A DNA stretch of 64,000 nucleotides from Escherichia coli (GTDB lineage Bacteria; Pseudomonadota; Gammaproteobacteria; Enterobacterales; Enterobacteriaceae). A program made the position numbers and the translations under genes. The DNA lies in NCBI RefSeq assembly GCF_036507355.1, contig NZ_AP027877.1; one strand, 5' to 3'. The notes below the pieces were generated by a model. It saw only the letters and a list, made by a program, of their open reading frames with translations. It searched no databases and was not told where the DNA came from. Below, piece by piece: positions 9,897-10,357 of this stretch. The number at the start of each line of letters is the position of its first letter. The stretch's first letter is position 1.

Positions 9897-10070
9897 TTAA
9901 AACAGTGAAAACAACAGCGCCACCGGGAAACTCATCGGCCATGTTGCCCCCACCAGAAAGGCGCTTAAGAAACGGATGCGTTTCTTATCGTGAGAAAGAA
10001 ACCAAGTGATAAGAAATGCGATTGCTGCCATAACCGCATAAAAAACAAGCATGTGTTGATAGAGAGACAT
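9897..10070 (-). CDS. ortT: orphan membrane toxin (GhoT-like)
   Basis: ORF 9897-10118; ATG at 10070 gives 57 aa MSLYQHMLVFYAVMAAIAFLITWF... with two hydrophobic helices. Confidence 0.75.
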   Translation of the reverse strand: MSLYQHMLVFYAVMAAIAFLITWFLSHDKKRIRFLSAFLVGATWPMSFPVALLFSLF

Positions 10071-10264
10071 GTACGGGCGTCCAGCCAGATGAATAAAACG
10101 CGCGCAAATATGCGTCATTTTTTGACGTGCATCAAGTTTTTTAACCGGTTTGAGAAAAAAACATCAAACAGCAACTTGCCCTTATCCATCTTCAGAATGA
10201 GTATTATTGCGGATTTTCTTAACCCGTACTATACACATAGGGGCAATGATAAAAGGTGGCAAAA

Positions 10265-10357
10265 ATGAATGTTTCCAGTAGAACTGTAGTACTGATAAAT
10301 GTCTTTGCTGCTGGTTTGTTTACTCTTATCTCTATGAGATTTGGCTGGTTTATTTGA
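10265..10357 (+). CDS. yncL: small membrane protein (30 aa)
   Basis: Hand-translated: ATG at 10265, MNVSSRTVVLINVFAAGLFTLISMRFGWFI, stop TGA at 10355-10357; AAGGTGG upstream; matches remembered YncL. Confidence 0.7.
   Translation: MNVSSRTVVLINVFAAGLFTLISMRFGWFI

What the first reader, a model, noticed from the sequence alone, without database searches (positions are those of the whole stretch)
9897..10357. Cluster of very small membrane proteins: orphan toxin ortT and 30-aa yncL
Two sub-60-aa hydrophobic peptides are encoded divergently in a short interval. yncL is below the ORF-track threshold and was found only by hand translation; it has a good Shine-Dalgarno and is followed by a 13-bp perfect inverted repeat. 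Small-protein genes are commonly missed by automated annotation.
Basis: partly seen in the sequence, partly recalled or inferred. Interest (0 to 1): 0.35.

Follow-up and report, generated by a model that had tools for sequence, protein, structure and literature searches.

The report
Known E. coli genes ortT and yncL
The interval holds two well-studied small membrane-protein genes of E. coli, the orphan toxin gene ortT and the stress-induced gene yncL, so the finding is correct but ordinary; the only unusual detail is a rare one-codon deletion in yncL.

Summary
ortT is at 9897-10070 (-). It encodes 57 aa, identical to K-12 b1445, and scores 96.9 bits against Pfam GhoT_OrtT. yncL is at 10265-10357 (+) and scores 63.9 bits against NCBIfam YncL (cutoff 35). 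RefSeq annotates both genes in essentially all of 5,426 complete E. coli genomes, and both have been studied experimentally. OrtT is a membrane-damaging orphan toxin. YncL is a sigma-S and stress-induced single-helix protein that partly depolarises the membrane.

Both reading frames are under strong purifying selection: dN/dS is 0.11 for yncL and 0.06 for ortT. The divergent pair, about 190 nt apart, is conserved in Escherichia, Citrobacter, Salmonella, Intestinirhabdus and Pluralibacter. ortT occurs without yncL in 55 other enterobacterial loci.

Corrections:
- Canonical YncL is 31 aa. The 30-aa form here comes from an in-frame loss of Val17. No complete E. coli genome in the collection has it, but five NCBI contigs of one small clone do.
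- The inverted repeat is 14 bp, not 13. It has no U-tract, and its 9-bp core is kept through compensatory changes.
- yncL is no longer missed by annotation.

Nothing here is new in kind.

The parts
9897..10070 (-). ortT (ydcX) CDS, 57 aa. A toxin of the GhoT/OrtT family with two hydrophobic helices.
   Evidence: The translation is identical to K-12 b1445. Pfam PF10753 scores 96.9 bits against a cutoff of 22.1. RefSeq annotation agrees. dN/dS is 0.06 over 26 orthologues. The 16-codon upstream extension to ATG 10118 is not frame-conserved, because the cross-genus alignment has 1-4 nt indels there.
10265..10357 (+). yncL CDS, 30 aa here against 31 aa canonically. A small membrane protein with a single hydrophobic helix.
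   Evidence: Translation. NCBIfam NF000537 (equivalog) scores 63.9 bits against a cutoff of 35. RefSeq annotation agrees. dN/dS is 0.11, with 9, 6 and 27 variable columns at codon positions 1, 2 and 3.
10312..10313 (+). Site of the in-frame 3-nt deletion. Codon 17 (GTT, Val) of canonical yncL is missing: GCT GCT [GTT] GGT.
   Evidence: Alignment with K-12 and ET350. All 5,412 matching E. coli records reach at most 98.3% identity, which equals the 3-nt gap. The exact 30-aa protein is on 5 NCBI contigs, and two of these are 99.98-100% identical to the window.
10071..10264 (.). 194-nt divergent intergenic control region shared by ortT and yncL.
   Evidence: Blocks conserved across genera. An RpoS genomic-SELEX peak of intensity 28.5 lies in the yncL/ydcX spacer (PMC5493296). 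An FNR ChIP-chip peak is reported at ydcX (PMC1802558).
10122..10135 (.). Palindrome TTGACGTGCATCAA, an FNR-type box (consensus TTGAT-N4-ATCAA).
   Evidence: Sequence. It is conserved in all 16 aligned genera/species, and is a perfect TTGATATACATCAA in two Escherichia lineages. It is the same site that Grainger et al. predicted under the ydcX FNR ChIP peak, 5'-AAAACTTGATGCACGTCAAAAAAT-3' (PMC1802558).
10106..10112 (-). Nearly invariant AATATGC (read on the minus strand: GCATATT). Candidate -10 element for ortT. This is an inference only.
   Evidence: Near-invariant block in the cross-genus alignment. TTGATG lies 18 nt upstream on the minus strand. No TSS data were examined.
10207..10235 (+). 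Candidate yncL promoter: -35 TTGCGG (10207-10212), a 17-nt spacer, then C + TATACA (10229-10235), which is a sigma-S-type -10.
   Evidence: Sequence. ATTGCGG and ACTATAC are conserved across genera. The Salmonella orthologue STnc1110/STM14_1932 needs sigma-S for expression (PMC5437024). There is an RpoS SELEX peak in this spacer. The exact TSS was not examined.
10253..10259 (+). Shine-Dalgarno sequence AAGGTGG for yncL, ending 5 nt before the ATG.
   Evidence: Conserved across genera.
10380..10414 (+). 14-bp perfect hairpin with a 7-nt loop, starting 22 nt after the yncL stop codon. Probably a 3'-end, terminator or stability element of the yncL transcript, shared with convergent transcription from the patD side.
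   Evidence: A 9-bp core is conserved in 18 sequences, and 3 of the 9 pairs are kept through changes on both sides, for example U-A to G-C. No T-run follows the stem, so the terminator scan did not call it. patD-yncL is listed as a convergent overlapping pair (PMC12288877).

Best explanation
The interval is the chromosomal ortT-yncL locus of Escherichia coli. It holds two independent, divergently transcribed genes for very small inner-membrane proteins, both already known.

ortT (57 aa, two hydrophobic helices) belongs to the GhoT/OrtT toxin family. When made, it inserts into the inner membrane, damages it, lowers proton-motive force and ATP, and slows growth. It has no cognate antitoxin, so it is held in check at the level of transcription.

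yncL (31 aa canonically, 30 aa here, one hydrophobic helix) is a stationary-phase and stress protein that depends on sigma-S. [quoted passage not shown]

The two genes share a 194-nt control region. It carries an FNR-type box and conserved promoter elements. The yncL transcript ends near a conserved hairpin.

Shown here: gene identity, frames, purifying selection, synteny, the conserved regulatory blocks and the hairpin covariation. Taken from the literature: toxicity, depolarisation, sigma-S dependence, FNR binding and RseP dependence. Inferred: the exact promoters and the role of the hairpin. The window's yncL carries a rare clone-specific loss of Val17 whose effect is unknown.
For: - Identity: the OrtT protein is identical to K-12 b1445. 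YncL differs from K-12 by F13V and the loss of V17.
- Annotation: RefSeq annotates both genes under the match in 5,415 of 5,426 genomes.
- Family models: PF10753 at 96.9 bits and NF000537 at 63.9 bits.
- Coding constraint: dN/dS is 0.11 for yncL and 0.06 for ortT, with variation concentrated at third codon positions.
- Synteny: the divergent pair sits 176-197 nt apart in 25 loci of five genera.
- Regulatory conservation: the SD, the sigma-S-like -10 and the FNR box are conserved. The hairpin shows compensatory changes.
- Literature: OrtT toxicity, membrane damage and the lack of an antitoxin (PMC4344625). YncL depolarisation, nucleoid condensation and induction by heat shock, minimal medium and stationary phase (PMC12542507). 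RseP-dependent cleavage in vivo (PMC10470546). Sigma-S dependence of the Salmonella orthologue (PMC5437024). RpoS SELEX peak. FNR ChIP peak and site.
Against: Nothing contradicts the identification. There are four caveats.
- The physiological roles come mostly from over-expression studies.
- RseP cleavage of YncL was not reproduced in vitro.
- Tagged YncL was not detected in Salmonella; only a lacZ fusion was.
- The hairpin lacks a U-tract, so its role as a terminator is an inference.

The local Pfam copy gave no hit for the 30-aa YncL, although the precomputed annotation lists PF28073:YncL for the same protein.
Confidence: 0.95

Rival explanations
1. yncL is primarily a non-coding small RNA (it was first catalogued in Salmonella as sRNA STnc1110), and the 30/31-codon frame is incidental or secondary. 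This would make it at most a dual-function RNA.
For: The Salmonella orthologue was originally listed as a non-coding sRNA, and its 3xFlag-tagged product was not detected (PMC5437024). The transcript is short and ends near a conserved hairpin. RIL-seq work lists yncL as a partner of the KilS sRNA (PMC8175672).
Against: The substitution pattern is that of a protein-coding sequence: 9, 6 and 27 variable columns at codon positions 1, 2 and 3, with dN/dS 0.11. The SD and ATG are conserved. The frame is intact at 30-31 codons in all 25 loci. Translational lacZ fusions are expressed. The E. coli protein is detectable and its production has phenotypes. Rfam gave no match with E-value up to 1 in 8500-12000.
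Confidence: 0.04
2. YncL and OrtT are a functional pair. In this reading the neighbouring small membrane protein modulates or neutralises OrtT in the membrane, which would make it the 'missing' antitoxin-like partner of the orphan toxin.
For: The divergent adjacency and spacing are conserved in five genera. Both proteins act on the membrane potential. The published antitoxin search cloned only 217 bp upstream of ortT, which covers the intergenic region but not the whole yncL ORF. Its genomic library had only about 3-fold coverage (PMC4344625). YncL was therefore never tested directly.
Against: ortT occurs without any detectable yncL within 2.5 kb in 55 of 80 loci, including Enterobacter, Kosakonia, Lelliottia, Leclercia and Pantoea. 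In several Enterobacter, patD sits directly upstream of ortT, and no substitute small hydrophobic ORF is conserved there. YncL on its own depolarises cells rather than protecting them. The two genes have separate promoters and different reported regulators.
Confidence: 0.04
3. The 30-aa yncL is an assembly or sequencing artefact, or a decaying gene, rather than a functional allele.
For: None of 5,412 complete-genome records shares the 3-nt deletion. All 24 other species keep 31 codons with a residue at this position; the more distant Pluralibacter is 30 aa through loss of the C-terminal residue.
Against: The identical 30-aa protein is recorded on 5 contigs from separate NCBI assemblies. Two of them match the window at 99.98-100% over 4-6 kb. 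The deletion is in frame, lies outside any homopolymer, and leaves a 20-residue hydrophobic stretch. The protein still scores far above the NCBIfam cutoff. Whether it still functions is untested.
Confidence: 0.03

Closest known systems
OrtT (YdcX, b1445) of E. coli K-12, the orphan toxin related to GhoT (Islam, Benedik & Wood 2015, PMC4344625)
   Same: The 57-aa sequence is identical. The neighbours are the same: ydcY on one side and yncL 194 nt away on the other. It has the same Pfam family, PF10753.
   Different: The protein does not differ. The window strain carries an extra acetyltransferase cassette beyond yncL, which does not touch ortT.
GhoT, the toxin of the type V GhoT/GhoS system
   Same: It belongs to the same Pfam family (Toxin_GhoT_OrtT), has the same size and two-helix build, and has the same reported membrane-damaging action.
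   Different: No ghoS-type antitoxin gene lies next to ortT. The adjacent genes are ydcY (DUF2526) and yncL. GhoS is reported not to counteract OrtT.
YncL (b4598) of E. coli K-12, and its Salmonella orthologue STM14_1932 / 'sRNA' STnc1110
   Same: It has the same position, orientation, SD, start codon, promoter blocks and hairpin. It hits the NF000537 equivalog model.
   Different: It is 30 aa instead of 31, through loss of Val17, and it has Val13 instead of Phe13, a common polymorphism.
YohP and other stress-induced single-helix small membrane proteins of E. coli
   Same: They are under 50 aa with one hydrophobic helix and are induced by sigma-S or in stationary phase. Production gives sublethal membrane depolarisation and nucleoid condensation.
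   Different: No sequence similarity was looked for or is claimed, and the loci are different. The resemblance is one of functional class only.
Type I toxin-antitoxin loci (hok/sok, tisB/istR, ldr/rdl)
   Same: They also encode small hydrophobic membrane-active peptides flanked by structured RNA elements.
   Different: No antisense RNA gene was found: Rfam gave no match. Cloned flanking RNA is reported not to neutralise OrtT.

Membership tests
GhoT/OrtT toxin family (Pfam PF10753) | Sequence match to the family profile above the curated gathering score | tested here: met
   96.9 bits against a cutoff of 22.1, covering profile positions 1-55 of 55.
GhoT/OrtT toxin family (Pfam PF10753) | A protein of about 57 aa with two hydrophobic helices separated by a short basic loop | tested here: met
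   Apolar stretches at residues 7-26 and 34-57, with the loop HDKKRIR between them.
OrtT specifically (orphan toxin, as opposed to GhoT) | Orthology to b1445 in the ydcY-ortT-yncL context, with no adjacent ghoS-type antitoxin | tested here: met
   100% protein identity to b1445. The neighbours are ydcY (PF10735, DUF2526) and yncL.
OrtT specifically (orphan toxin, as opposed to GhoT) | Toxicity through membrane damage and ATP loss on expression | not testable with these tools
   Reported for the identical K-12 protein (PMC4344625).
YncL (NCBIfam NF000537, equivalog) | Sequence match above the curated cutoff | tested here: met
   63.9 bits against a cutoff of 35, covering profile positions 1-30 of 30. 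The precomputed annotation also lists PF28073:YncL. The local Pfam copy gave no hit.
YncL (NCBIfam NF000537, equivalog) | Canonical length of 31 aa | tested here: not met
   30 aa, because codon 17 is deleted in frame. NCBI still names this exact sequence YncL. The length is a descriptive feature, not a functional criterion.
YncL (NCBIfam NF000537, equivalog) | Position divergent from ortT at about 190 nt, with a conserved SD and ATG | tested here: met
   The intergenic region is 194 nt in the window and 176-197 nt in 25 loci of five genera.
YncL (NCBIfam NF000537, equivalog) | Translated membrane protein induced by stress or sigma-S | not testable with these tools
   Reported in the literature. 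The coding constraint shown here (dN/dS 0.11) is consistent with translation.
Type I toxin-antitoxin locus | A cis- or trans-encoded antisense RNA antitoxin next to the toxin gene | tested here: not met
   No Rfam family matched at E-value up to 1 in 8500-12000. Published cloning of the flanking regions did not neutralise OrtT. A novel antisense RNA cannot be excluded from sequence alone.
Rho-independent (intrinsic) terminator, for the hairpin at 10380-10414 | A GC-rich stem followed directly by a U-tract | tested here: not met
   The stem is strong, but the sequence after it is CGCAAGATCTTCTCA. The terminator scan did not report it.

The most novel reading that the evidence does not exclude
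There are two candidate readings. (1) YncL is a membrane-level partner of the 'orphan' toxin OrtT in the Escherichia-Salmonella-Citrobacter clade. This was never tested directly, because the published antitoxin search cloned only the intergenic DNA and not the yncL ORF. (2) Less ambitiously, the clone-specific Val17 deletion, which shortens and re-registers the single helix, is a natural change-of-function allele of YncL.
Probability: 0.05. Interest if true: 0.45.

Novelty: already known. Interest (0 to 1): 0.08.

Why it matters
It matters little beyond correct annotation. Both genes are named, annotated and experimentally characterised in E. coli K-12, so the finding mainly shows that the first-stage reader can recover very small genes from raw sequence.

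The modest added value is comparative:
- Both frames are under strong purifying selection.
- yncL is confined to a sub-clade, while ortT is much more widespread.
- The shared control region carries a conserved FNR box and a sigma-S-type promoter, in agreement with published binding data.
- The hairpin after yncL is maintained by compensatory changes.
- This strain's lineage carries a rare one-residue deletion in the YncL helix, which could serve as a natural variant for structure-function work on small membrane proteins.

Tried and rejected
- Rfam scan of 8500-12000 at E-value up to 1: no match, so there is no known sRNA or antisense family here.
- Consensus promoter/terminator scan: counts were at chance level. 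It did not call the yncL promoter, whose -10 ends in A, or the hairpin, which has no T-run. Its two 'terminator-like' hits, at 10016-10039(-) and 10098-10115(+), lie inside ortT or in the conserved ortT upstream block and were not pursued as terminators.
- The longer 73-aa version of ortT (ATG at 10118) is rejected. It has no SD, and the region shows non-triplet indels across genera.
- The GTG start at 10256 for yncL is rejected. The GTG is part of the SD, and both RefSeq and the Salmonella study place the start at the ATG three codons downstream.
- A diverged or substitute small hydrophobic ORF upstream of ortT was sought in the 55 yncL-negative loci, using an HMM on six-frame translations and an ORF/hydropathy scan. 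Nothing significant or conserved turned up.
- The local Pfam scan of the 30-aa YncL gave no family. The NCBIfam hit and the precomputed PF28073 annotation were used instead.
- The idea that the 3-nt deletion is an assembly error is rejected, because the same allele is present in independent assemblies.

Full report
**Observation**

- On the minus strand, a 73-aa ORF (9897-10118) contains a 57-aa frame starting at ATG 10070. Its product is MSLYQHMLVFYAVMAAIAFLITWFLSHDKKRIRFLSAFLVGATWPMSFPVALLFSLF, identical to K-12 OrtT.
- On the plus strand, a 33-aa GTG ORF (10256-10357) contains an ATG at 10265 that gives MNVSSRTVVLINVFAAGLFTLISMRFGWFI, 30 aa.
- The genes are divergent, with 194 nt between them.
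- AAGGTGG (10253-10259) ends 5 nt before the yncL ATG.
- The inverted repeat after yncL is 14 bp perfect, not 13. Its arms are 10380-10393 and 10401-10414, with a 7-nt loop. The 83 nt after the stop codon fold at -28.5 kcal/mol, z = -4.3.
- Hydropathy shows one apolar helix in YncL and two in OrtT.

**Identity**

A 1.3-kb query around the locus matched 5,415 of 5,426 complete E. coli genomes at 95-99.5% identity. The features annotated under the match are ydcY, 'ortT: orphan toxin OrtT' and 'yncL: stress response membrane protein YncL'.

The same order, mnaT-ydcZ-ydcY-ortT / yncL ... patD, is seen in strain ET350 and, inverted, in K-12 MG1655, where the genes are b1445 and b4598.

OrtT scores 96.9 bits against Pfam PF10753 Toxin_GhoT_OrtT, cutoff 22.1. 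The 30-aa YncL scores 63.9 bits against the NCBIfam equivalog NF000537, cutoff 35. The window is therefore an E. coli chromosome, and both genes are known, named and routinely annotated.

**The one-codon deletion**

Canonical yncL is 96 nt, encoding 31 aa. The window lacks GTT, which is codon 17 (Val), between 10312 and 10313: GCT GCT [GTT] GGT.

With a 171-nt query across yncL, all 5,412 matching records fell in the 95-99% identity band. The best reached 98.3% identity, which is exactly the 3-nt gap. No complete genome in that collection shares the deletion.

An exact-sequence look-up nevertheless found the 30-aa protein in NCBI. It has four listed accessions, sits on five contigs, and is named YncL. 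The two common 31-aa alleles each sit on at least 1,000 contigs. Two of the contigs carrying the 30-aa allele are 100% (4,237 nt) and 99.98% (6,093 nt) identical to window 7265-13357.

The deletion is therefore a real allele of a small clone to which the window belongs. It is not an artefact. Its functional effect is unknown. It removes one residue from the middle of the only helix and leaves about 20 apolar residues.

**Conservation across Enterobacteriaceae**

A scan of one genome per species with OrtT returned 80 loci at 74-96% identity. They span Escherichia, Citrobacter, Salmonella, Enterobacter, Kosakonia, Lelliottia, Leclercia, Phytobacter, Pantoea, Mixta, Cedecea, Buttiauxella and others.

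tblastn and ORF extraction found an intact yncL frame in 25 of these loci. It always lies on the opposite strand, 176-197 nt from the ortT start, and is 31 aa, except in Pluralibacter, where it is 30 aa through loss of the last residue. The 25 loci belong to Escherichia, Citrobacter, Salmonella, Intestinirhabdus and Pluralibacter.

In the other 55 loci, an HMM built from the YncL sequences found nothing significant in six-frame translations within 2.5 kb (best E = 1.9). No alternative small hydrophobic divergent ORF recurs there. In several Enterobacter species, patD lies directly upstream of ortT.

Nei-Gojobori counts give dN/dS of 0.11 for yncL, with 9, 6 and 27 variable columns at codon positions 1, 2 and 3 out of 31 each. 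For ortT the value is 0.06. Both frames are protein-coding and under purifying selection. yncL is the younger or more restricted gene, and it is not an obligatory partner of ortT.

**Regulatory anatomy**

The cross-genus alignment shows four conserved blocks in the 194-nt spacer and beyond.

1. The block ATTGCGG-N-ACTATACA. This reads as -35 TTGCGG at 10207-10212, a 17-nt spacer, and C + TATACA at 10229-10235, the hallmark of a sigma-S-type -10 (inference from the established consensus). It agrees with the sigma-S dependence of the Salmonella orthologue (PMC5437024) and with a strong RpoS genomic-SELEX peak in the yncL/ydcX spacer (PMC5493296).
2. The SD and the ATG of yncL.
3. The palindrome TTGACGTGCATCAA at 10122-10135. 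It is conserved in all aligned species and is a perfect TTGAT-N4-ATCAA in two Escherichia lineages. It is the very site that Grainger et al. predicted under their FNR ChIP-chip peak at ydcX (PMC1802558).
4. A nearly invariant AATATGC at 10106-10112. Read on the ortT strand it is GCATATT, a possible -10. This is inference only.

[quoted passage not shown] No TSS data were examined here.

**The hairpin**

In 18 non-identical sequences from Escherichia, Citrobacter and Salmonella, RNAalifold predicts a 9-bp core. Three of its pairs are kept through changes on both sides, for example U-A to G-C in 6 of 18 sequences. In Escherichia the stem extends to 13-14 bp.

No T-run follows the stem, and the terminator scan did not call it. 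I therefore read it as a 3'-end, stability or non-canonical termination element of the yncL transcript. It may also serve convergent transcription: patD-yncL is listed among convergent overlapping pairs in PMC12288877. This role is an inference.

**How it works**

These points come from the literature on the identical or near-identical K-12 genes.

- OrtT is toxic as a protein. It damages the membrane, lowers ATP and causes lysis on over-production. It is not neutralised by YdcY, GhoS, the flanking RNA regions or a genomic library, and it reduces growth under trimethoprim/sulfamethoxazole stress (PMC4344625).
- YncL is induced in minimal medium, by heat shock and in stationary phase. Its production depolarises the membrane, condenses the nucleoid and sensitises cells to pore-forming peptides (PMC12542507).
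- YncL fusions are cleaved in an RseP-dependent manner in vivo, though not in vitro (PMC10470546).

**Rivals**

- An RNA-only reading of yncL (it was first listed as sRNA STnc1110) is contradicted by the codon-position pattern, the conserved SD and ATG, and the published translation data.
- A toxin/partner reading for OrtT and YncL is not formally excluded. The published construct carried only 217 bp upstream of ortT, not the yncL ORF. But the 55 loci with ortT and no yncL, and YncL's own depolarising activity, make it unlikely.
- An artefact reading of the deletion is rejected.

**Verdict**

The finding is correct and the genes are real, but everything essential is already known and annotated. 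Interest is low. The only non-textbook items are the rare delta-V17 allele and the comparative details above.

Noticed in passing
window 10464-11776 (CDS 10759-11568, minus strand): A 1.31-kb low-GC insert (GC 0.30-0.37 against about 0.53 in the flanks) lies between the yncL hairpin and the patD stop codon. It carries a 269-aa hexapeptide-repeat acetyltransferase. RefSeq calls it 'CatB-related O-acetyltransferase', and it scores below the cutoff against the Vat and CatB resistance models. K-12 lacks the insert, and the junctions share an imperfect direct repeat of about 11 nt, CTTAAT(A/G)TTTA. Only 1,156 of 5,426 E. coli genomes cover at least 80% of the 1,301-nt query (window 9500-10800), which reaches only the first ~340 nt of the insert.
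   Followed up: partly
window 10122-10135: The palindrome TTGACGTGCATCAA is conserved in the ortT-yncL spacer and is identical to the FNR site predicted under the ydcX ChIP-chip peak (PMC1802558). It is unclear which of the two genes it controls, and in which direction. It lies about 58 nt upstream of the ortT ATG and about 136 nt upstream of the yncL ATG.
   Followed up: partly
window 10312/10313 (yncL codon 17): An in-frame loss of Val17 gives a 30-aa YncL. It is absent from 5,412 complete-genome records but present on 5 NCBI contigs of what appears to be one clone, including GCA_016660925.1 and GCA_021425525.1, which are 99.98-100% identical to the window over 4-6 kb.
   Followed up: yes
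L054, L055, L056, L076 (Enterobacter spp.), upstream of ortT: In several Enterobacter species, patD ends 174-195 nt upstream of ortT with no yncL in between. This suggests yncL arose, or was inserted, in the patD-ortT spacer of the Escherichia-Salmonella-Citrobacter lineage, or was lost elsewhere.
   Followed up: partly
L001 1205-3078 (E. coli ET350): In the closest complete genome, the neighbouring ydcZ (DMT transporter) gene is split by a frameshifted IS3-family transposase. The window's ydcZ (9128-9577) is intact.
   Followed up: no
protein cluster of K-12 YncL (P0020, P0023, P0027): Some GenBank genomes, for example Nissle 1917, carry 71-aa 'hypothetical protein' entries that cluster at 90% identity with the 31-aa YncL. 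These are probably over-extended ORF calls at the same locus.
   Followed up: no
window 8379-9131 (+): The mechanical ORF list gives 250 aa for the mnaT/mddA frame. The annotated gene is 172 aa (519 nt) in K-12 and ET350, so the upstream 78 codons are an open-frame extension and not part of the gene.
   Followed up: no
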